Part shown: one piece after another, positions 266 through 20,176 of the stretch
How the letters are laid out: each line of letters begins with the position of its first letter
Numbering within the stretch: position 1 is the first letter of the stretch
Origin: a virus
Taxonomy: Duplodnaviria; Heunggongvirae; Uroviricota; Caudoviricetes
Virus record (IMG/VR): IMGVR_UViG_3300015179_000039
Reading direction: 5' to 3' (one strand)
Length of the DNA stretch: 20,176 bases
Position numbers and translations under genes: made by a program
Notes under the pieces: generated by a model
Told to the model about the DNA's origin: nothing
Seen by the model: only the letters and a program-made list of their open reading frames with translations
The model's database searches: none

Positions 266-300
266 ACAAGCCCTCGCGTTGAGGGCTTTACTGATTTTTT
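266..300 (+). terminator. probable rho-independent terminator after grxA
   Basis: GC-rich hairpin agccctc-gcgtt-gagggct directly after the grxA stop, followed by a T-run (tactgatttttt). Coordinates approximate. Confidence 0.45.
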
Positions 301-665
301 CTGTGCTGTGGTTTAAACAAACTACTGATAAATAAGAAACACAGTGCCCCCAGCGCACACCAGAACACCGCGCTTAGTAACCATGCCAGCTCTTGCCAGA
401 ATGAGCGCGTCGGTGAAAAAAACAGCCGCATAATGAGCATCGAACAGGGTGCCGCCAGCATTGCGCCAAACAGAGGTTTCAGGACTTCTCTACGCTGTGA
501 AAAGAAGCTGGCGACTGCTCCAGGAAGAATGAAAAATAGCAAGCCGATTTCAGGATGCCCGGCAGCCCGAAAAGCGCCTTTCATGTGCGTCGCCAGAAAA
601 AGGCACACCACAATGAAGAGGACAAAACAGCAGATTGCCCCCGCCCAACGTTGTTTATGTTTCAC
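288..665 (-). CDS. ybjM: inner membrane protein YbjM
   Basis: 125-aa hydrophobic ORF with several predicted TM helices, convergent with grxA and divergent from ybjL as in E. coli. Plus-strand ORFs 433-678 and 555-752 are its antisense shadows. Confidence 0.85.
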   Translation of the reverse strand: MKHKQRWAGAICCFVLFIVVCLFLATHMKGAFRAAGHPEIGLLFFILPGAVASFFSQRREVLKPLFGAMLAAPCSMLIMRLFFSPTRSFWQELAWLLSAVFWCALGALCFLFISSLFKPQHRKNQ

Positions 666-934
666 TCGTTCCTCCTGACACTGCGTCTATCGAACACATT
701 TTTCGCCAGTGTGGCGTTCAGTAAGATAAAGCCGCTTCGCATTCCATGCTAATATAGGCCAACGCAATTCATATAGCCGTTGATACCTAATGTGATTACA
801 CTAGTAAAATATATTGTTACTTTACTATCGTTTAGGTGCGCTGAATGAATCTGCGCCCTGAATTCTGGTAAAAAACATTATCGTAAATTACCATTTCTTT
901 CAACAGCTTACTAGTAAACAAGAAGTTAGCCTCC

Positions 935-2620
935 GTGAATATAAACGTCGCCGAATTGTTAAATGGGAATTACATTCTGTTATTATTTGTGGTCCTCGCG
1001 CTTGGGCTATGTCTCGGAAAGTTACGACTTGGTTCGATCCAACTGGGTAATTCCATTGGCGTTTTAGTCGTATCGCTGTTATTAGGCCAACAACATTTCA
1101 GCATTAACACCGATGCGCTTAATCTTGGCTTTATGCTGTTTATTTTCTGCGTCGGGGTCGAAGCCGGACCGAACTTTTTTTCCATTTTTTTTCGCGATGG
1201 GAAAAATTACCTAATGTTAGCACTGGTGATGGTTGGCAGTGCGCTGGTGATCGCCTTAGGGTTAGGTAAGCTGTTTGGCTGGGATATTGGCCTGACGGCC
1301 GGTATGTTAGCAGGCTCTATGACGTCGACACCGGTTCTGGTCGGTGCTGGCGATACACTGCGTCATTCCGGCATGGAAAGCAGGCAGCTCTCACTGGCAC
1401 TGGATAATCTGAGCCTCGGGTATGCCTTAACCTATTTAATCGGTCTGGTGAGTTTGATTGTTGGTGCGCGTTACTTGCCGAAATTGCAGCATCAGGACTT
1501 ACAGACCAGCGCCCAGCAAATCGCCCGCGAACGTGGCCTGGACACTGATGCCAACCGTAAGGTTTATTTACCGGTGATCCGCGCCTATCGCGTCGGCCCG
1601 GAACTGGTGGCCTGGACCGACGGCAAAAATCTGCGTGAACTGGGTATTTATCGACAAACCGGCTGCTACATTGAACGTATTCGACGTAACGGGATTCTGG
1701 CAAATCCAGACGGTGATGCCGTGCTACAAATGGGCGATGAAATAGCGTTGGTAGGCTATCCCGACGCCCATGCCCGACTCGATCCCAGCTTCCGTAACGG
1801 TAAAGAAGTTTTCGATCGTGACCTTCTCGACATGCGTATCGTCACTGAAGAAGTGGTCGTTAAAAACCATAACGCTGTAGGTAAACGTCTCGCACAACTG
1901 AAGTTGACCGATCACGGTTGCTTCCTTAACCGCGTCATTCGTAGCCAGATTGAGATGCCGATAGATGACAACGTCGTGCTTAACAAAGGTGACGTTTTAC
2001 AAGTCAGCGGCGATGCCCGCCGCGTAAAAACCATCGCCGATCGCATCGGCTTTATCTCGATTCACAGCCAGGTCACTGACCTGCTGGCATTCTGCGCCTT
2101 CTTTGTTATTGGGCTGATGATCGGGATGATCACCTTCCAGTTCAGCACATTCAGTTTCGGCATGGGGAACGCTGCCGGGTTGTTATTCGCCGGAATTATG
2201 CTGGGCTTTATGCGTGCTAACCACCCGACCTTCGGTTACATTCCGCAGGGTGCATTAAGCATGGTGAAAGAGTTCGGCTTGATGGTGTTTATGGCAGGCG
2301 TTGGTCTGAGCGCCGGTAGCGGTATTAATAACGGCCTGGGCGCGATTGGCGGTCAGATGTTGATTGCCGGATTGATTGTCAGTCTGGTGCCCGTGGTTAT
2401 CTGTTTCTTGTTCGGTGCTTATGTATTGCGAATGAACCGCGCGCTGTTGTTCGGCGCAATGATGGGCGCACGTACCTGCGCGCCGGCAATGGAGATCATC
2501 AGTGATACAGCTCGCAGTAACATCCCGGCGCTGGGCTATGCGGGCACCTATGCAATCGCCAACGTCCTGCTGACGCTGGCAGGGACAATCATCGTCATGG
2601 TATGGCCAGGATTAGGATAA
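935..2620 (+). CDS. ybjL: putative AAE-family transporter YbjL
   Basis: 561-aa ORF with a GTG start ([20 protein letters not shown]...). Membrane domains flank a central soluble region; length and sequence match E. coli YbjL as I recall it. Confidence 0.92.
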
Positions 2621-10144: not shown

Positions 10145-10717
10145 TCAGGGGGATTCATTGCTCTTATTTGCCGGAAATTTTCTATAAATTGTGGAAACAC
10201 CTACATCAAAAATCAGTGCAATACGCTGTCTTGATTCTCCAGCCTCGAGTAAACGTCCAATCTGTGCCCACTGTTCGGTGGTCAACTTAGGACGGCGTCC
10301 ACCTACTCTGCCTTTGGCGCGAGCTGCAGCAAGCCCCGCCCTGGTACGTTCAACTATCAGTTCGCGCTCCATTTCAGCCAGGGCCCCCATGACATGAAAA
10401 AAGAAACGGCCCATTGGGGTACTGGTATCAATACTGTCAGTCAGGCTTCGGAAATTCACGCCGCGCTGGCGCAACTCTTCTATCAGCGTAACAAGATGCC
10501 GCATACTGCGCCCCAACCTGTCCAGCTTCCAGACAACCAGTGTGTCACCTGCCAATAGTGTCCTGAGCAGTTTTTTAAGCCCCGGTCTGTCGGACTTAGT
10601 GCCACTGATTTTGTCCTCAAAAATCCGCTCACATCCCGCGCAGTTCAGTGCATTACGTTGCAAATCGGTGTTCTGGTCATTTGTTGATACGCGTACATAG
10701 CCAATAAGCATGATCAT
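10145..10717 (-). CDS. serine recombinase, DNA invertase (Hin/Gin/Pin/Cin/Min family)
   Basis: 190-aa ORF with N-terminal resolvase catalytic motif (IGYVRVSTNDQ, catalytic Ser) and a C-terminal HTH (GESRQRIALIFDVGVSTIYRKF). Lies adjacent to an inverted-repeat-bounded tail-fibre cassette. Confidence 0.93.
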   Translation of the reverse strand: MIMLIGYVRVSTNDQNTDLQRNALNCAGCERIFEDKISGTKSDRPGLKKLLRTLLAGDTLVVWKLDRLGRSMRHLVTLIEELRQRGVNFRSLTDSIDTSTPMGRFFFHVMGALAEMERELIVERTRAGLAAARAKGRVGGRRPKLTTEQWAQIGRLLEAGESRQRIALIFDVGVSTIYRKFPANKSNESP

Positions 10718-10738
10718 CCCCCTGAATAAAAACCGGAG

Positions 10739-11113
10739 ATGATGCCAGTTAGCCGTTATCTCTGCATTTTCTTAAACGTTGGTTTGGGAGAAGCGGCAAA
10801 ACGAAATGTGGGAACAGGGGAAAATCAGATACCTGATATGTCATCATATGCATCAGGTTCAGGCTGGCGAAAAATGCCAGATGGTTCAATTGAACAGTGG
10901 GGACGAATTAGTTTTCCTGATGAACACGGGCCTGTATCCGCCAATGTTTCATTCCCGATTCCATTTACACAGACACCGGGCATTGTAATTGTGTGCGATG
11001 GTGGTTTCGGGGGCGGGAATATGTGGGGGGCGACCAACTGGAGCACTACCGGCTTCATAGCTCACTGCAATTATGGTCTTGAAGGTGGTGCGTTTTTCGC
11101 TAAGGGTTGGTAA
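10739..11113 (+). CDS. silent alternative tail-fibre C-terminal cassette (Sv'-like)
   Basis: The ORF has no credible own start. It shares the LGLGE junction with H at the crossover site and continues with an unrelated Gly-rich C-terminus (...[14 protein letters not shown]...). Only codons after about 10792 would be used after inversion. Confidence 0.7.
10767..10792. repeat. recombination site (hix/gix-like), invertase-proximal
   Basis: ttttcttaaacgttggtttgggagaa; its reverse complement TTCTCCCAAACCAACGTTTAAGAAAA resembles Hin hixL (TTCTTGAAAACCAAGGTTTTTGATAA, recalled from memory). Inverted partner of the site at 12577-12602. Coordinates within 2 nt. Confidence 0.6.
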
Positions 11114-11556
11114 TGATGAAATATCTGTACGTAAACAACCTGGCATATCCTTACGAACTTCAGTCTCTTTATGTTGAAAAAGGTGAATGGCCGGAAGAAA
11201 AAGGTGTTGATATAGACGAAGTAATTTTCAGGGAATATTTCTATGATACACCACCAGAAGGAAAATACAGATGTGTCGGAGAGGATGGACTGCCTGCATG
11301 GGCAGATATTCCTCCACCAACACGTGAAGAACAAATTGCATCAGCCGAAACTAAAAAGCAGCAATTGATTAATCAGGCCAACGAATACATCAACAGTAAA
11401 CAATGGCCAGGTAAAGCATCAATTGGTCGTCTGAAAGGTGAGGAACTGGCGCAATATAATTTGTGGCTGGATTATCTGGACGCACTGGAACTGGTCGATA
11501 CTTCCGGTGCGCCAGATATTGAATGGCCTACGCCTCCGGCAGTTCAGGCCAGATGA
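11107..11556 (+). CDS. tail fibre assembly protein (alternate, partner of the silent cassette)
   Basis: 149-aa ORF with the C-terminal tail-fibre-assembly signature (...[25 protein letters not shown]), shared with the convergent tfa at 11528-12130. Start overlaps the end of the Sv' cassette. Confidence 0.85.
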
Positions 11557-12130
11557 CATCCGGCGCGGTGCTGGTATCTGTTGCCGTCACCGCGTCAATG
11601 TAATCCAGCACAGCGTTAAGCCGGGTTGTTTCTGCCTGCGTCAGTTTACGTCCGGCCTGCAATTTCAGTTGAATCAGACTGATGGAAGCCATTGCAGTAT
11701 CAATCAGCGACTGGCGCTGTGCTTCTGCTGCATCTACTGCGGCGCTATGCTGTGCCTCGGTATCCGTCACCCATTTCTCACCATCCCATTTATCGTATGG
11801 CGTTAATGGGGCGATAGTGGTTGTATTTTCAGGGTAATCACCCGGAGCTGTGATTTCTTTTGATTCTCCTGTTTCAGTGCTATAGACCGTTTCACCGCGA
11901 TGGTCTGGCACATATTCCCATGAGTTAAGATCTGCAGAACGGCAAATTGCATAACCAGCTTTATATGAGCTAGGAGCATCTAAACAGGAACTTGCCGGGA
12001 TACCGACGCCGACAGCGATATATTCATTTGATGTGGAAATATATTCCCGTGTTTCGCCATCATAGTTATAGACGGTAATATTCCCCGCCTTCGTGGCAAT
12101 AAGCTCGATATTTAATACGGCTTTATTCAT
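11528..12130 (-). CDS. G: tail fibre assembly protein (currently expressed orientation)
   Basis: 200-aa ORF immediately downstream of H, with C-terminal ...[25 protein letters not shown] typical of gpG/Tfa chaperones. Confidence 0.85.
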   Translation of the reverse strand: MNKAVLNIELIATKAGNITVYNYDGETREYISTSNEYIAVGVGIPASSCLDAPSSYKAGYAICRSADLNSWEYVPDHRGETVYSTETGESKEITAPGDYPENTTTIAPLTPYDKWDGEKWVTDTEAQHSAAVDAAEAQRQSLIDTAMASISLIQLKLQAGRKLTQAETTRLNAVLDYIDAVTATDTSTAPDVIWPELPEA

Positions 12131-16165: not shown

Positions 16166-16972
16166 ATGAGTGTTATGAATCCAATAAGTTCTAATATATT
16201 TAATGCTGAATTTTTAAACACCCCGGCAGCGGCACTTGCCGCATGGATTTCCATTATTGGAGCTGTTATAACTTTGGTGACGATAGTTATAAGAGCACTA
16301 TTCAAATATAGAAAATCTCATGATGTAATTTTGAAAAAATCAGGAATACCTGCGTTTATATTAAATTTCTTTCTTATAAAAATATCATTAAAAAGGCTGC
16401 CTACTATCACATGGGCTGAAAAATCATTCACGGTTCTATTTTCGCTTCTTTTTTTGTGTGCAATTTATCTTTTTGGTCCAGTTTTCATCCAAGCCATTAG
16501 AACCCCACCAAATAGCACATTGCTTTATTGGATAAAGTCCGGTGAATCATTTTATATGTCAAAAAAAATGGCGACTGCAGCTACAATATTAACCACTCCT
16601 GATTGGGAAATATCAAAGGATGATTGCGAAGAGTCATCCTCTGCCAGTACAGAGAAGTACAAATCATTAACTATCGAACATAAAGAAATTCTTTGTAAAC
16701 TACTAACCACTGATGAAGGGAATGCTTACATTGATGAAGAAGTCAAGAATTTCGTTAAAGACAAATTTTTTATCTATTCCTTTGCCCCAACAACTATATT
16801 TATTCTATTATGGATTTCTTTGGGTTTTATACTGACCATTCACTATTCTAAAAAAGTTAGAAAATATATTCTAACTGAACAAAAAAATGCAATTCATTGG
16901 GCATATGGTGAATTCAAGACAGAAGGAATCTATTCAATATATCAAGAGTTAGAACATAAGACTCACCATTAA
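16166..16972 (+). CDS. AT-rich moron gene: hypothetical multi-pass membrane protein
   Basis: 268-aa ORF with ATG start and an AGGTGG Shine-Dalgarno 6 nt upstream. GC content is visibly far below the flanking tail genes. Predicted TM helices near residues 20-45, 88-110 and 205-230 (possibly one more at 60-75), plus a charged loop of about 95 aa. No motif I recognise. Confidence 0.7.
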   Translation: MSVMNPISSNIFNAEFLNTPAAALAAWISIIGAVITLVTIVIRALFKYRKSHDVILKKSGIPAFILNFFLIKISLKRLPTITWAEKSFTVLFSLLFLCAIYLFGPVFIQAIRTPPNSTLLYWIKSGESFYMSKKMATAATILTTPDWEISKDDCEESSSASTEKYKSLTIEHKEILCKLLTTDEGNAYIDEEVKNFVKDKFFIYSFAPTTIFILLWISLGFILTIHYSKKVRKYILTEQKNAIHWAYGEFKTEGIYSIYQELEHKTHH

Positions 16973-17360: not shown

Positions 17361-17784
17361 GTTTCACCGTCCACATTTCTTCAGGTTCATCGGGTTCTGC
17401 TACAGCTTCAACGCTCGACACACTGCCGTCAGTGCTGACCAGCACACGCTCCGTCAGTTGCAGGTTCAGGCTGATATCACAGACATCGTTGCGCAGAATA
17501 TCCACCTCAAAGGTGAATAGTTTTTCCCGTAACGCCGGGTTATTGATGGCATCGGGCTGGTTATCCCTCAGCCACAGCAAAACCGGGGCCATCAGCAGAT
17601 TCTGGTCGCCGCTGAAATCCTCAATCACCACGTTCAGGGTGTAGCGGTACTCCCATGACATGGAGCTGGCCCCCGTGGCAACCAGCGAACCGTTATCCAC
17701 AAACAGATGCAGTTTGTCCGGGTTATTGCGGACATAAGGCACCGCTTTATTGAGGGCGTGGCGCAGGGATTGTGGTTTGTTCAC
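17353..17784 (-). CDS. R: tail completion protein R
   Basis: P2 R-like ORF (VNKPQSLRHALNKAVPYVRNNPDKLHLFVDNG...). The track begins at a TTG at 17805; I favour the GTG about 21 nt downstream, which is preceded by AGGAG. Start is uncertain. Confidence 0.82.
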   Translation of the reverse strand: MNKPQSLRHALNKAVPYVRNNPDKLHLFVDNGSLVATGASSMSWEYRYTLNVVIEDFSGDQNLLMAPVLLWLRDNQPDAINNPALREKLFTFEVDILRNDVCDISLNLQLTERVLVSTDGSVSSVEAVAEPDEPEEMWTVKRG

Positions 17785-18037
17785 TGTTTCGCTCCTGACA
17801 CGCAATAATCATATCCACTTTGTCTGCACAGACCGCCCAGGCGGCCTCCGTTTCATCCAGCAACGCGTTCAGATCACCGTTAGTGCGCGGCGCTGCCTGA
17901 TCCAGCCGACACGGCGTCACTCGCGGACAACCACTGACGGTAAGCTGCACCTCCGGTGAGTGTGGGGCGTTCCCGCAGCCGGATAATGTCAGCAGGCAAA
18001 GGAGTATCAGCCCAGCGGCGTAAATCCTCGTTCTCAC
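17747..18037 (-). CDS. lysC: outer-membrane spanin lipoprotein (LysC/Rz1-like)
   Basis: 96-aa ORF with a signal peptide and lipobox (MRTRIYAAGLILLCLLTLSGC) and a Pro-rich C-terminus. Starts inside lysB in another frame and extends past its stop. Likely GTG start. Confidence 0.8.
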   Translation of the reverse strand: MRTRIYAAGLILLCLLTLSGCGNAPHSPEVQLTVSGCPRVTPCRLDQAAPRTNGDLNALLDETEAAWAVCADKVDMIIACQERNSEQTTIPAPRPQ

Positions 18038-18308
18038 GTTTCAGTTCCTCGATCCGGTGTTGTCGTTGTCTCAGCAGCGCGCTGGTCTGTTCTGCTTCGG
18101 CATAGAGCCGCGCCTGCTCCCGGTTATTGGTTTCAGTCAGAATAGACAGGCTGATAAGCTGGCTGTTGCTCTTTGCCAGTGCCTGGCTTTTGCTCTGCAG
18201 CTCGTCTGCCTGCGTGCTGATGGTCTGGCTGGCATCAGCCAGCCGCCACGTCTGCCAGCCCAGCGCCGCCAGTAATAACGCCAGCACAACCAGCAGCAAC
18301 CGGTTCAT
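17880..18308 (-). CDS. lysB: inner-membrane spanin (LysB/Rz-like)
   Basis: 142-aa ORF with an N-terminal TM helix (LLLVVLALLLAALGW) followed by a coiled-coil-like periplasmic region; in the P2 lysB position. Confidence 0.85.
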   Translation of the reverse strand: MNRLLLVVLALLLAALGWQTWRLADASQTISTQADELQSKSQALAKSNSQLISLSILTETNNREQARLYAEAEQTSALLRQRQHRIEELKRENEDLRRWADTPLPADIIRLRERPTLTGGAAYRQWLSASDAVSAGSGSAAH

Positions 18309-18682
18309 GCTGCTACCTGTTGCGCCATCTGATTACGGGTGATCCAGAAGGCAATAACGGTCAGTAGATAAAAGACCAGGGTAATAGCCCACCCCGTCCA
18401 AGCGAGACTTACAACAATCAGCAATCGCATCACCCAACTGGTAAATACGTTTTCTTTTCGGGTAATTGTCTTCAGCAAAGATGCCCTCAACTCCTGCCAG
18501 AGCGGGCCATTCTTAATTAACGCAACCAGTGCTACCGGAATTACCGCCCATGTCAGCAAACAGGCTACCCAAACGCCGGACGCTGCCAGTACCGGAAAAA
18601 TCCCCTGCGGATACACCATTGCTGCGATTAACAGCGCCATCCATAACATCAGAAACAGTCCGCTGATTAATTTCTTTTTCAT
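18305..18682 (-). CDS. lysA: lysis-timing membrane protein LysA-like
   Basis: Four-TM hydrophobic protein starting at MKKKLISGLF, with GGAG 7 nt upstream. The track ORF extends to 18754 without an RBS. In the P2 lysA position. Confidence 0.75.
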   Translation of the reverse strand: MKKKLISGLFLMLWMALLIAAMVYPQGIFPVLAASGVWVACLLTWAVIPVALVALIKNGPLWQELRASLLKTITRKENVFTSWVMRLLIVVSLAWTGWAITLVFYLLTVIAFWITRNQMAQQVAA

Positions 18683-18683
18683 T

Positions 18684-19196
18684 TCAGTTTGCTCCCTGTA
18701 AACACCAGGCCATCTCCCGCGCACGGCGGTTATCCAGCCCCTGATTAAACACACCTTTTACATACACCCAGCGCGGCAACTGTCGGCACGCATCCGCCCA
18801 GCGCCGCTGATTGAGCAATTTCACCAGCGTGGAACTGCAGGCATTGCCCGTCCCCACGTTGAAGGCAAACGACACCGCAGCGTCATACACCTTCTGCGGC
18901 GGCTGTTGCTTCACACACCTTTCCAGCGCCCGCTCCACACGCAGCACGTTGGAGATCAGCCCTTCTGCTGCCTGTCGCTCCGTAATGGTTTTGCCGGGAA
19001 TGACGCCCGACGTATTACCAATGCCGTCGGTCCAGACACCCGCGCTGCACTGATACGGCTGCAGACGACAACCTTCGTAATCGGCAATCAGTTTCAGCCC
19101 TTCCACGGAGGTGTGAAGCTGCTGAAAACCCGGCAGCGTGGCAGCAATAGCCAGCACGGTCCCGACAAGGCAGCGTTTAACGATTGATGGATTCAT
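18684..19196 (-). CDS. K: SAR endolysin (T4-lysozyme/GH24 type, P1 Lyz-like)
   Basis: 170-aa ORF with a weakly hydrophobic Gly/Ala-rich N-terminal segment (CLVGTVLAIAATLPGF) and the E-x8-C-x5-T catalytic triad (E41, C50, T56), plus Cys9 and Cys43. Occupies the P2 K position. Confidence 0.88.
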   Translation of the reverse strand: MNPSIVKRCLVGTVLAIAATLPGFQQLHTSVEGLKLIADYEGCRLQPYQCSAGVWTDGIGNTSGVIPGKTITERQAAEGLISNVLRVERALERCVKQQPPQKVYDAAVSFAFNVGTGNACSSTLVKLLNQRRWADACRQLPRWVYVKGVFNQGLDNRRAREMAWCLQGAN

Positions 19197-19392
19197 AGTC
19201 CTCCCGCGAGATCTGCCCGTCGCGCAGAAGCTGGTAGGCTTTGTGTTTGTAGTACCAGTTGATAGCCAGCATCAGCACACCAATCATCAGGCCGCCCAGC
19301 GTTGAGGCATCCTTGATGGACAAATCGCCCAGCCAGGCCAGCACAACGGCGATGCAGTACGTGATAAAGGCGCTGATTCGCTCAAGCGTCAT
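19177..19392 (-). CDS. holin (two-TM, pinholin-like)
   Basis: 71-aa ORF with two hydrophobic helices (ISAFITYCIAVVLAWLG and LGGLMIGVLMLAINWYY) and a charged C-terminus, immediately upstream of the endolysin in the P2 Y position. Confidence 0.75.
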   Translation of the reverse strand: MTLERISAFITYCIAVVLAWLGDLSIKDASTLGGLMIGVLMLAINWYYKHKAYQLLRDGQISREDYESINR

Positions 19393-19395
19393 AAT

Positions 19396-19599
19396 TCAGT
19401 CCCATAGCTGGACGGTCTGCACGGTGGTGGTGGTCGGAATGTCCGGCAGCTCCACCTGCAGCCCGTGAGGTAAAAAGGGGCCATATTCGGCAAGCCCCGG
19501 ATTTGCCTTCAGTACCTGCTCCGTGACACCCTGCGTGCGCCCGTAATGACGCCAGCAAAGCGCGTCCACCGAGTCATACTGATGCGCACGCACTTTCAT
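19396..19599 (-). CDS. X: tail protein X
   Basis: 67-aa ORF (MKVRAHQYDSVDALCWRHYGRTQGVTEQVLKANPGLAEYGPFLPHGLQVELPD) closely resembling P2 gpX in length and sequence. Confidence 0.88.
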   Translation of the reverse strand: MKVRAHQYDSVDALCWRHYGRTQGVTEQVLKANPGLAEYGPFLPHGLQVELPDIPTTTTVQTVQLWD

Positions 19600-20126
19600 C
19601 AGATAAGCTCCACTGTGCAGTGCGGCGCATCCTGCACCCGGCTGATGGCCCAGCGGGCGTCACGCCACAAATCACCGCTGGATTCCGCCAGTTCCTCGCC
19701 CCGCTTCACACCGGATGCCGTGGCGTCATAGTCCTGATAACGCTCGTTGAGCATGGCGCGTGCCCAGCAGTAAACCGCGTTGAAATAGTGATGAATGCGC
19801 TCACTTTTGCCGTCCAGCTGTTCAGCCGGAACCTCTGCCAGCGAGGCATATCCCAGCATCTGCTGACGTCTGCGAAACTCATACAGCTCTGCGTTGACCT
19901 CCGAAATTGCCGACAGCGCAACCTGCTTTAAACGCGGCTGCGTCACCGTGCCGTCAGTGCGCATCACGCTGCGAAACTCCGACAGGTCCACATCAGGCCA
20001 GAACGGTGTATTTCTGATGATTTCCGCCTGTTCCGGTGCCTGTTCTGGCGCAACAAACTTCATGCTGCTTTCTCCTGAAATAGAGGGCGGTGGACGGAGT
20101 TTTGATGTGGCTGTGCCTTTCGCCAC
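19599..20126 (-). CDS. L: head completion/stabilisation protein L
   Basis: C-terminus ...RVQDAPHCTVELI and position upstream of X match P2 gpL. Start is either the track ATG at 20126 or the ATG near 20063 (MKFVAPEQ..., preceded by AGGAG). Confidence 0.85.
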   Translation of the reverse strand: MAKGTATSKLRPPPSISGESSMKFVAPEQAPEQAEIIRNTPFWPDVDLSEFRSVMRTDGTVTQPRLKQVALSAISEVNAELYEFRRRQQMLGYASLAEVPAEQLDGKSERIHHYFNAVYCWARAMLNERYQDYDATASGVKRGEELAESSGDLWRDARWAISRVQDAPHCTVELI

Positions 20127-20155
20127 CCCGTGCCGCCCGTGCGCAGGGGCACGTT
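20060..20155 (-). CDS. M: possible 3' end of terminase small subunit gene M (partial)
   Basis: Based on P2 gene order only. An open frame ending in TGA overlaps the internal ATG of L, but the frame cannot be confirmed from so short a fragment. Confidence 0.3.
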   Translation of the reverse strand, partial: NVPLRTGGTGWRKAQPHQNSVHRPLFQEKAA

Positions 20156-20176
20156 AGATCGGAAGAGCGTCGTGTA
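20156..20176. other. Illumina TruSeq adapter sequence (non-biological)
   Basis: agatcggaagagcgtcgtgta is the start of the standard Illumina adapter read-through sequence AGATCGGAAGAGCGTCGTGTAGGGAAAGAGTGT. Confidence 0.85.

What the first reader, a model, noticed from the sequence alone, without database searches (positions are those of the whole stretch)
18684..19392. Lysis cassette uses a P1 Lyz-type SAR endolysin with a catalytic Cys and a 71-aa pinholin-like holin
Seen in sequence: the endolysin has a weakly hydrophobic Gly/Ala-rich N-terminal segment and an E-x8-C-x5-T triad, with a Cys where T4 and P21 lysozymes have Asp. It also has Cys9 in the N-terminal segment and Cys43, the same three-cysteine layout as P1 Lyz. 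The upstream holin is only 71 aa with two TM helices. Established knowledge: P1 Lyz is secreted as an inactive membrane-tethered enzyme whose catalytic Cys is caged in a disulfide and freed by isomerisation with the SAR-domain Cys after release; SAR endolysins usually pair with pinholins. Inference: this prophage uses that strategy, with spanins LysB/LysC and a LysA-like regulator.
Basis: partly seen in the sequence, partly recalled or inferred. Interest (0 to 1): 0.45.

Follow-up and report, generated by a model that had tools for sequence, protein, structure and literature searches.

The report
P2-like prophage lysis cassette, P1-type endolysin
This is the ordinary host-lysis gene block of a very common P2-like prophage of E. 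coli and Klebsiella; its secreted lysozyme has the same cysteine "safety catch" layout as phage P1 lysozyme and sits next to a small holin related to known pinholins, and this arrangement is already described.

Summary
On the minus strand, 19177-19392 encodes a 71-aa two-helix holin and 18684-19196 a 170-aa GH24 lysozyme. The best solved relative of the lysozyme is P1 Lyz (E 4e-26). E41/C43/C50/T56 align with P1 E42/C44/C51/T57, and Cys9 in a short, weakly hydrophobic N-terminal segment aligns with P1 Cys13. Both proteins in fact have seven cysteines.

Among diverse homologues with a catalytic Cys, all 22 that carry an N-terminal membrane segment have the Cys at Glu+2, against 27 of 60 soluble ones. 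Twenty of the 22 also keep a Cys in that segment.

The holin meets Pfam's HP1-holin family. It shares PHROG 20 with two holins reported experimentally to behave as pinholins, S21 and HP1 Hol. However, its first helix is strongly hydrophobic, unlike theirs.

Downstream lie a P2 LysA homologue and the overlapped spanins LysB/LysC.

The cassette occurs at 95% identity or more in 1032 of 5426 complete E. coli genomes. [quoted passage not shown] This is ordinary and of low interest.

The parts
19177..19392 (-). Class II holin, 71 aa, HP1 holin family. TMD1 is about residues 6-22 and TMD2 about residues 29-48. The C-terminus is charged. The gene overlaps the endolysin start by 20 nt.
   Evidence: ORF. 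Pfam PF16080, 36.7 bits against a cut-off of 28.8. PF04971 (P21 holin S), 23.2 bits, below its cut-off of 26. phrog_20, 93.7 bits, a PHROG shared with S21 and HP1 Hol. hhalign against S21 gives probability 72%. Hydrophobicity.
18684..19196 (-). GH24 (T4-type) lysozyme of the P1 Lyz type, 170 aa, predicted SAR endolysin.
   Evidence: Pfam PF00959, 137 bits. P1 Lyz 1XJT, E 4e-26. AlphaFold2 model (pLDDT 77) best matches 1XJT, TM-score 0.71. PGAP annotates the same 513-nt CDS in E. coli.
19125..19196 (-). N-terminal export/anchor segment. Residues 1-8 are MNPSIVKR (positively charged). Residues 9-24 are CLVGTVLAIAATLPGF. This is the predicted SAR domain and includes Cys9 (19170-19172).
   Evidence: Cys9 aligns with P1 Cys13. 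The Cys is conserved in 20 of 22 diverse membrane-segment-bearing relatives. Segment conservation equals that of the catalytic domain.
19029..19076 (-). Catalytic and caging motif: Glu41, Gly42, Cys43, six residues, Cys50, five residues, Thr56.
   Evidence: Codons verified. Aligned with P1 Glu42/Cys44/Cys51/Thr57.
18305..18682 (-). LysA homologue, 125 aa, four predicted membrane helices. It is a likely lysis-timing regulator.
   Evidence: NCBIfam NF038378, 122.5 bits. phrog_162, 148.5 bits; P2 LysA hits the same PHROG at 227 bits. Helices. The P2 record says lysA is 'nonessential; affects timing of lysis'.
17880..18308 (-). LysB, the inner-membrane spanin subunit, 142 aa.
   Evidence: TIGR03495, 174.8 bits against a cut-off of 92.75. 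33% identical to P2 LysB.
17747..18037 (-). LysC, the outer-membrane lipoprotein spanin subunit, 96 aa. Lipobox L-S-G-Cys21. The gene starts inside lysB and ends inside R (overlapped architecture).
   Evidence: NF038368, 125.9 bits. Pfam LysC. 45% identical to P2 LysC over the full length. Lipobox codons.

Best explanation
This is the lysis cassette of a P2-like (Peduoviridae) prophage. The P2 holin Y and cytoplasmic endolysin K are replaced by an HP1-type module, a small class II holin plus a P1 Lyz-type SAR endolysin. Homologues of LysA, LysB and LysC are kept.

Proposed mechanism (all steps inferred by homology)
1. The endolysin is exported by Sec. It stays tethered to the inner membrane by its uncleaved N-terminal segment (residues 9-24).
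2. In the periplasm its catalytic Cys50 is locked in a disulfide with Cys43. Cys9 is buried at the cytoplasmic face of the membrane.
3. When the holin depolarises the membrane, the N-terminal segment leaves the bilayer. Cys9 attacks the Cys43-Cys50 bond and forms Cys9-Cys43. This frees Cys50, and the segment refolds into the enzyme.
4. The murein is degraded. The LysB/LysC spanin then disrupts the outer membrane. LysA tunes the timing.

Shown here: gene order, family membership, residue correspondence, and family-wide co-occurrence of the cysteines.
Inferred: export, non-cleavage, disulfide exchange and small hole size.
For: - Residue-for-residue match to P1 Lyz.
- Seven cysteines in both proteins. 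One thiol is therefore always left unpaired, as the isomerisation model requires.
- Cys137/Cys165 are invariant across all aligned relatives. Cys94/Cys120 shift together relative to P1 Cys91/Cys118, which suggests two structural disulfides.
- The Cys triple is tightly linked to having a membrane segment (22/22 against 27/60; 20/22 with a Cys in the segment).
- In relatives 45-60% identical, the N-terminal segment shows 40-64% identity and the rest 45-66%.
- The model best matches full-length active P1 Lyz.
- The holin shares PHROG 20 with S21 and HP1 Hol. A conserved S30-x3-G34-x3-G38 motif aligns with S21 G40-x3-S44-x3-G48.
- In phage HP1, Hol and Lys were reported experimentally to behave as a pinholin and a SAR endolysin (PMC7312051).
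- In P1 Lyz the triad Cys is held in a disulfide until activation (PMC3556154, citing Xu et al. 2005).
Against: - Nothing has been tested experimentally for this protein.
- The hydrophobic stretch is only 16 residues and is clearly weaker than known SAR domains. AIA|A (residues 16-18) and LPG|F (residues 21-23) could be signal-peptidase sites.
- The holin's first helix is the more hydrophobic one (dG -0.56, against +1.9 for the second). This is the reverse of S21 and HP1 Hol. There is no dual-start antiholin.
- A natural C43G variant exists (P0087).
- The catalytic Cys is common in soluble relatives.
- The one paper on the near-identical KP12 protein prints primers that do not match this gene.
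Confidence: 0.75

Rival explanations
1. The N-terminal segment is an ordinary cleavable Sec signal peptide, as in Oenococcus phage fOg44 Lys44 or T4 RI. The enzyme would be secreted without Cys9. It would then either stay caged or be controlled in another way.
For: - The hydrophobic core is short (16 residues) and weak (dG +3.5 over 17 residues).
- Small residues at -3/-1 are present: A16-I-A18 and L21-P-G23 (read directly from the sequence).
- SignalP calls the homologous HP1 Lys segment a signal peptide (PMC7312051).
- T4 RI, long thought to be SAR, is cleaved (title of PMC8385771).
Against: - Cys at the N-side of the segment is kept in 20 of 22 diverse relatives, and only where Cys43 and Cys50 are present.
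- The segment is as conserved as the catalytic domain.
- In P1 Lyz the equivalent segment is uncleaved and becomes part of the active fold, and the model matches full-length 1XJT best.
Confidence: 0.12
2. The 71-aa protein is a conventional large-hole class II holin, not a pinholin. The SAR endolysin simply responds to the depolarisation it causes, as P1 Lyz does with LydA.
For: - TMD1 is a stable, strongly hydrophobic helix. This is unlike the SAR-like TMD1 that must leave the membrane in S21.
- There is no dual start.
- The score for the S21 Pfam family is below its cut-off (23.2 against 26).
- SAR endolysins work with canonical holins (PMC9025707).
- There is weak similarity to the last two helices of P2 Y (E 1e-4).
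Against: - It shares a PHROG with S21 (114 bits) and HP1 Hol (39.5 bits).
- It meets the cut-off of the HP1-holin Pfam family, whose founder did not release beta-galactosidase (PMC7312051).
- A glycine-zipper-like motif in TMD2 aligns with that of S21.
Confidence: 0.3
3. Translation starts at GTG codon 14, as RefSeq NC_047818 annotates. This would give a cytoplasmic 157-aa lysozyme with no Cys9 and no membrane segment.
For: RefSeq annotates a 474-nt CDS for the same gene in Klebsiella phage 4LV2017. That start avoids the 20-nt overlap with the holin gene.
Against: - The ATG at 19196 has a strong GGGAGGA upstream; the GTG has none.
- Residues 1-13 are conserved at protein level in relatives down to 54% identity.
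- PGAP and GenBank KP12 use the long form.
- Database clusters with thousands of members start MNPSIVKRC.
Confidence: 0.03

Closest known systems
Phage P1 endolysin Lyz (PDB 1XJT active form, 1XJU secreted inactive form)
   Same: - GH24 fold and the E-x8-C-x5-T triad.
- A caging Cys at Glu+2 and a Cys in the N-terminal SAR segment.
- Seven cysteines in total, with two further Cys positions aligned (137 with 150, 165 with 178).
- It is the best sequence hit and the best fold hit.
   Different: - Only 37% identical.
- The membrane segment is shorter (16 residues against about 21) and much less hydrophobic.
- It lacks the 11-residue insertion after the FNxG motif.
- One presumed structural Cys pair is shifted (94/120 against 91/118).
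- The partner holin is unrelated to P1 LydD, and the gene order is holin then endolysin.
Haemophilus phage HP1 lysis cassette (Hol pinholin, Lys SAR endolysin, ORF25 LysB-like); PMC7312051
   Same: - A P2-like phage.
[quoted passage not shown]
- No dual-start antiholin.
   Different: - Direct holin similarity is very weak (hhalign probability 8.5%).
- In HP1 Hol, TMD1 is the weak helix; here TMD1 is the strong one.
- No lysA-like gene is annotated between lys and the LysB-like ORF25 in the HP1 record.
- HP1 lies in a different genus with a different host.
Lambdoid phage 21 pinholin S21 and SAR endolysin R21
   Same: - A 71-aa class II holin of the same PHROG, with an aligned small-x3-small-x3-small motif in TMD2.
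- The endolysin is a SAR-type GH24 enzyme.
   Different: - R21 has Asp, not Cys, in the triad and no SAR Cys, so its regulation is conformational only.
- S21 has a Gly/Ala/Ser-rich TMD1 and a dual start. This holin has neither.
Phage P2 lysis genes Y, K, lysA, lysB, lysC
   Same: - The same position between tail gene X and tail gene R.
- Homologous LysA (same PHROG), LysB (33% identity) and LysC (45% identity).
- The same overlapped spanin architecture.
   Different: P2 Y is a 93-aa holin of a different family (phrog_175, Pfam Phage_holin_3_2). P2 K is a soluble endolysin with no detectable similarity. The holin-endolysin pair has been exchanged as a unit.
Erwinia phage ERA103 Lyz103 (disulfide caging of the catalytic Glu; Kuty et al. 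2010, from my own knowledge, paper not held)
   Same: A SAR endolysin of the GH24 family that is controlled by a thiol in its SAR domain.
   Different: In Lyz103 the caging disulfide flanks the catalytic Glu. Here there is no Cys N-terminal of Glu41, so the layout is the P1 type, not the Lyz103 type (sequence).

Membership tests
P1 Lyz-type SAR endolysin | GH24 / T4-lysozyme fold | tested here: met
   Pfam PF00959, 137 bits. 1XJT, E 4e-26. Foldseek best hit 1XJT, TM-score 0.71.
P1 Lyz-type SAR endolysin | Catalytic triad Glu-x8-Cys-x5-Thr, with Cys in place of Asp | tested here: met
   Glu41/Cys50/Thr56 align with P1 Glu42/Cys51/Thr57.
P1 Lyz-type SAR endolysin | Caging partner Cys two residues after the catalytic Glu | tested here: met
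   Cys43 aligns with P1 Cys44. It is present in 22 of 22 membrane-segment-bearing catalytic-Cys relatives.
P1 Lyz-type SAR endolysin | N-terminal weakly hydrophobic membrane segment, rich in Gly/Ala/Ser/Thr, preceded by basic residues and containing a Cys | tested here: met
   K7-R8, then C9-F24 with 8 of 16 residues Gly, Ala, Thr or Pro. Cys9 is in the column of P1 Cys13. The segment is shorter and weaker than in P1.
P1 Lyz-type SAR endolysin | Sec-dependent export without signal-peptidase cleavage, and release from the membrane on depolarisation | not testable with these tools
   Indirect support only: conservation of the segment and of its Cys.
P1 Lyz-type SAR endolysin | Activation by thiol-disulfide isomerisation (Cys43-Cys50 exchanged for Cys9-Cys43) | not testable with these tools
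   An odd number of cysteines (seven) is consistent with it. No coordinates were available to measure S-S distances.
Pinholin (S21 / HP1 Hol kind) | Small class II holin with two membrane helices, N-in/C-in, and a charged C-terminus | tested here: met
   71 aa, helices at about 6-22 and 29-48, acidic periplasmic loop, basic-rich C-terminal tail (sequence).
Pinholin (S21 / HP1 Hol kind) | Sequence-family membership with a characterised pinholin | tested here: met
   PF16080 (HP1 holin family), 36.7 bits against a cut-off of 28.8. phrog_20 is shared with S21 and HP1 Hol. PF04971 (the S21 family) scores only 23.2 against a cut-off of 26, so that family is not met.
Pinholin (S21 / HP1 Hol kind) | SAR-like, weakly hydrophobic TMD1 able to leave the bilayer (S21 mechanism) | tested here: not met
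   TMD1 dG over 17 residues is -0.56, the most hydrophobic helix of the protein. S21 TMD1 is not detected as a membrane helix and HP1 Hol TMD1 scores +3.9. The Gly/Ala/Ser-rich stretch of S21 TMD1 is absent.
Pinholin (S21 / HP1 Hol kind) | Glycine-zipper-type motif in TMD2 | tested here: met
   S30-x3-G34-x3-G38 is invariant or nearly invariant in 26 family members. It aligns with S21 G40-x3-S44-x3-G48.
Pinholin (S21 / HP1 Hol kind) | Nanometre-scale holes: depolarises the membrane but does not release folded proteins or soluble endolysin | not testable with these tools
   Reported for HP1 Hol (PMC7312051) and for S21, but not for this protein.
P2-type two-component spanin (LysB/LysC) | An inner-membrane subunit with an N-terminal membrane helix, plus an outer-membrane lipoprotein subunit encoded by an overlapping gene in another frame | tested here: met
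   TIGR03495 at 174.8 bits and NF038368 at 125.9 bits, both above their cut-offs. lysC (18037-17747) starts inside lysB (18308-17880). Lipobox LSGC.
P2 LysA family | Multi-pass membrane protein encoded between the endolysin gene and lysB, homologous to P2 LysA | tested here: met
   phrog_162 at 148.5 bits; P2 LysA scores 227 bits on the same PHROG. Four predicted helices. Direct BLASTP is weak, E 0.002. Its role as a regulator is untested.

The most novel reading that the evidence does not exclude
This widespread enterobacterial clade may be a mechanistic variant of the pinholin/SAR system.
- The holin's TMD1 is a stable anchor and TMD2 is the weaker helix, so triggering cannot follow the S21 route in which TMD1 exits the membrane.
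- The endolysin's membrane segment is at the lower limit for a bilayer span.
- The conserved four-helix LysA homologue could be the dedicated antiholin, or a retention factor that compensates for these features.
Probability: 0.12. Interest if true: 0.35.

Novelty: already known. Interest (0 to 1): 0.12.

Why it matters
It matters little beyond correct annotation. The case shows that a very common E. coli/Klebsiella P2-like prophage (about one in five complete E. coli genomes) carries an HP1-type holin and a P1-type disulfide-caged SAR endolysin in place of P2's Y/K pair.

Two public annotations need fixing. The RefSeq record for phage 4LV2017 truncates the endolysin so that the membrane segment and Cys9 are lost, and it labels the LysA homologue 'endolysin'.

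For anyone using this enzyme as an enzybiotic, the cysteine chemistry and the N-terminal segment would affect recombinant activity.

Tried and rejected
- Similarity to P2 K and P2 Y: none for K. For Y there is only a marginal match to its last two helices. This is therefore not a diverged P2 pair.
- Similarity of the holin to P1 LydD, the pinholin next to P1 lyz: none.
- Lyz103-type caging (cysteines flanking the catalytic Glu): rejected, because there is no Cys before Glu41.
- Lipoprotein signal: rejected, because there is no lipobox before Cys9.
- Programmed frameshift joining the endolysin to LysA. Many 296-aa database proteins are such fusions, but they arise from different 1-nt deletions and are almost all singletons, while the intact forms have hundreds to thousands of members. 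I read them as sequencing errors or prophage decay.
- Experimental support from the KP12 paper: discounted, because the printed primers do not occur in this sequence.
- Kuty et al. 2010 and Sun et al. 2009 could not be read. What I say about them is from memory or from papers that cite them.
- Cys-Cys distances in the AlphaFold model could not be measured, because the tool returns no coordinates.
- No signal-peptide or topology predictor was available, so only simple hydrophobicity sums and the -3/-1 rule were used.
Full report
**What is at the coordinates.** Both genes lie on the minus strand. 19177-19392 encodes a 71-aa protein and 18684-19196 a 170-aa protein. The two genes overlap by 20 nt. 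The endolysin ATG (19194-19196) is preceded by GGGAGGA ending 3 nt upstream.

The flanking genes are those of a P2-type late operon:
- L (19599-20126) and X (19396-19599) upstream.
- A 125-aa membrane protein (18305-18682), LysB (17880-18308), LysC (17747-18037), R and S downstream.

The region is 97.7-98.3% identical to Klebsiella phage 4LV2017 (Peduoviridae, Elveevirus), to phage KP12 clone 3 and to an E. coli prophage. Phage homology begins near position 2890. To its left are host genes ybjM and a YbjL-like permease. This is therefore a prophage in an enterobacterial chromosome.

- It is a Pfam Phage_lysozyme protein at 137 bits.
- Its best solved relative is P1 Lyz (1XJT, E 4e-26), ahead of R21 and RrrD.
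- In that alignment Glu41/Cys43/Cys50/Thr56 match P1 Glu42/Cys44/Cys51/Thr57.
- I confirmed that my copy of the P1 Lyz sequence is identical to 1XJT residues 1-185. My copy of R21 matched 3HDE except at one residue, which I corrected.
- In a MAFFT alignment with P1 Lyz, HP1 Lys, R21 and four database relatives, Cys9 falls in the same column as P1 Cys13 and HP1 Lys Cys13. R21 has Ala there and Asp at the Cys50 column.
- Codon positions were verified.
- An AlphaFold2 model (mean pLDDT 77) matches 1XJT best, TM-score 0.71 over 169 columns. The PDB titles 1XJT the active, full-length form of P1 Lyz.

1. Both proteins have seven cysteines, not three. Here they are 9, 43, 50, 94, 120, 137 and 165. 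In P1 they are 13, 44, 51, 91, 118, 150 and 178.
   - Cys137 and Cys165 are invariant in all eight aligned sequences, including R21.
   - Cys94/Cys120 are displaced together relative to P1/HP1 Cys91/Cys118. This pattern suggests two structural disulfides.
   - An odd total leaves exactly one thiol free in either state. That is what the P1 isomerisation scheme needs. This last point is inference.
2. A catalytic Cys is not peculiar to SAR enzymes. Among representative homologues no more than 80% identical to the query, 60 of 87 soluble ones have Cys at that position. The same point was made earlier for phiCbK gp104 (PMC3556154).

**Is the cysteine layout more than chance?** Yes. I used the library of 50%-identity cluster representatives, aligned to the query together with P1 Lyz and R21, and classified each sequence by whether it has an N-terminal hydrophobic segment.
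- Cys at Glu+2 is present in 22 of 22 catalytic-Cys enzymes with such a segment. It is present in 27 of 60 without one. Fisher p is about 1e-6, or 1e-5 if one lipoprotein-like outlier is counted against.
- 20 of the 22 have a Cys at the N-side of the segment. The two exceptions appear to have truncated starts.
- Enzymes with a segment and Asp in the triad (R21 and one other) have no such Cys.
- Among 117 close relatives whose motif could be read, 116 keep Cys43 and Cys50. One (P0087, Dryocola) has C43G.

**SAR domain or signal peptide?** The hydrophobic stretch is only residues 9-24 (CLVGTVLAIAATLPGF), preceded by Lys7-Arg8.
- Its summed Hessa dG over 17 residues is +3.5. The values for P1, R21 and HP1 Lys are -0.2, +0.15 and -0.3. 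It is weakly hydrophobic as claimed, and indeed weaker and shorter than the models.
- Possible signal-peptidase sites (AIA|A, LPG|F) exist. I had no predictor to run, so cleavage cannot be excluded from sequence alone.
- Against cleavage, the segment Cys is conserved as described above. In addition, in relatives 45-60% identical the first 26 residues are as conserved (40-64%) as the rest of the protein (45-66%). This is not typical of disposable signal peptides. It fits P1 Lyz, where the segment refolds into the active enzyme.

**Start codon.** RefSeq NC_047818 annotates a start 13 codons downstream, at GTG codon 14. That start would delete Cys9 and half of the membrane segment. The long form is supported by:
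- the ribosome-binding site;
- protein-level conservation of residues 1-13;
- PGAP and the KP12 record;
- database clusters with thousands of members starting MNPSIVKRC.

**Holin.**
- The 71-aa protein meets Pfam's HP1 holin family (PF16080, 36.7 bits, cut-off 28.8). It scores just below the cut-off of the P21 holin S family (23.2 against 26).
- It belongs to phrog_20 (93.7 bits). S21 (113.9 bits) and HP1 Hol (39.5 bits) hit the same PHROG.
- A profile of 26 family members aligns to S21 with hhalign probability 72% over both helices. In that alignment the invariant or nearly invariant S30-x3-G34-x3-G38 of TMD2 lies on S21 G40-x3-S44-x3-G48.
- HP1 Hol has been reported experimentally to behave as a pinholin: it is lethal, causes no beta-galactosidase leakage, and is required for lysis in the natural host. 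HP1 Lys behaves as a SAR endolysin (PMC7312051). HP1 is itself a P2-like phage.
- The term 'pinholin-like' is therefore reasonable by homology.

This holin nevertheless departs from the S21 model:
- TMD1 (ISAFITYCIAVVLAWLG, dG -0.56) is its most hydrophobic helix. TMD2 scores +1.9.
- In S21 and HP1 Hol, TMD1 is the weak helix.
- The Gly/Ala/Ser-rich stretch of S21 TMD1 is absent.
- There is no dual start.
- It shows no similarity to P1 LydD, the pinholin next to P1 lyz (PMC9025707).
- SAR endolysins can be triggered by canonical holins as well (PMC9025707). Hole size therefore remains open, and I put the large-hole alternative at about 0.3.

**The rest of the cassette.**
- LysB (TIGR03495, 174.8 bits) and LysC (NF038368, 125.9 bits) exceed their curated cut-offs.
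- They are 33% and 45% identical to P2 LysB and LysC.
- lysC starts inside lysB and runs into R, as in P2. It has the lipobox LSG-Cys21.
- The 125-aa protein has four predicted helices. It belongs to NCBIfam DNZ54_00345 and to phrog_162, the PHROG of P2 LysA. Direct BLASTP to P2 LysA is weak (E 0.002).
- The P2 record describes lysA as nonessential and affecting lysis timing. 'Regulator' is therefore a homology transfer.
- Compared with P2, the holin and endolysin have been exchanged as a pair, while LysA, LysB and LysC are retained.

**How known is it?**
- The 709-bp holin-endolysin block is present at 95% identity or more in 1032 of 5426 complete E. coli genomes. Several matches are at 100%. 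PGAP names the genes 'lysozyme' and 'HP1 family phage holin'.
- Holin homologues next to endolysin genes occur in Salmonella SopEPhi, RE-2010 and Felsduovirus phages, and in Yersinia, Erwinia and Klebsiella P2-like phages. One record already labels the neighbour 'SAR-endolysin'.
- Kim et al. 2023 (PMC9902359) described KP12.peg.319, the same gene, as structurally similar to P1 Lyz (TM-align 0.83 to 1XJT) with a conserved SAR domain. A term search of that paper found no discussion of its cysteines. They obtained a low-confidence heptamer model for peg.320, which is this holin.
- The primers printed in that paper for peg.319 are absent from this sequence, and the forward primer is the one printed for phage KP1. 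I therefore do not count their lysis assay as evidence for this gene.
- The Glu-8-Cys/Asp-5-Thr triad and the role of the triad Cys in P1 Lyz regulation are textbook for the field (PMC3556154, PMC4640515; Xu et al. 2005 as cited in PMC9025707).

**Verdict.** It is a known kind of system in a very common prophage, so interest is low (0.12). The only mildly unusual points are the very short, weak membrane segment of the endolysin and the reversed helix hydrophobicity of the holin.

Noticed in passing
window 20156-20176: The last 21 bases, AGATCGGAAGAGCGTCGTGTA, are an Illumina TruSeq adapter. Phage homology stops at 20155. The contig end is therefore an assembly artefact, not genome sequence.
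   Followed up: partly
window 18684-18754 (endolysin 3' end / lysA upstream frame); proteins P0012, P0014, P0018: Dozens of database proteins of about 296 aa are endolysin-LysA fusions. They are made by different single-base deletions near codons 160-163. 235-aa holin-endolysin fusions also exist. Almost all are singletons, so they are probably sequencing errors or decaying prophages and not programmed frameshifts.
   Followed up: partly
window 16166-16972 (+): A 268-aa membrane protein (Pfam DUF6216) lies on the opposite strand between tail genes S and V. Its GC is 34% against about 56% around it. P2 carries the nonessential orf30 at this position. No PADLOC defence hit.
   Followed up: partly
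window 10145-12130: A Resolvase/HTH_7 invertase gene (10145-10717, minus strand) sits beside oppositely oriented alternative tail-fibre C-terminus and tail-fibre-assembly genes. This looks like a Cin/Gin-type invertible host-range segment.
   Followed up: no
window 288-2620 and about 2890: Host genes ybjM-like and YbjL-like permease lie at the left end. Phage homology begins near 2890, so the prophage-chromosome junction is inside the window.
   Followed up: no
L001 (NC_047818.1) 2106-2958: RefSeq phage 4LV2017 annotates the endolysin 13 codons short, losing Cys9 and half of the membrane segment. It also labels the LysA homologue 'endolysin'. PHROG 162 carries the same 'endolysin' label.
   Followed up: yes
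window 17747-18037; L006 664-912; L002 1548-1721: Three different lysC starts are annotated in public records (96, 82 and 57 aa). Full-length alignment to P2 LysC from residue 1 supports the 96-aa GTG start.
   Followed up: partly
protein P0087 (Dryocola sp.): A natural variant of the endolysin has Gly instead of the caging Cys43 but keeps Cys9 and Cys50. If functional, its catalytic Cys could not be caged.
   Followed up: no
PMC9902359, methods: The primers printed for cloning KP12.peg.319 do not occur in this gene. The forward primer is identical to the one given for phage KP1.
   Followed up: yes
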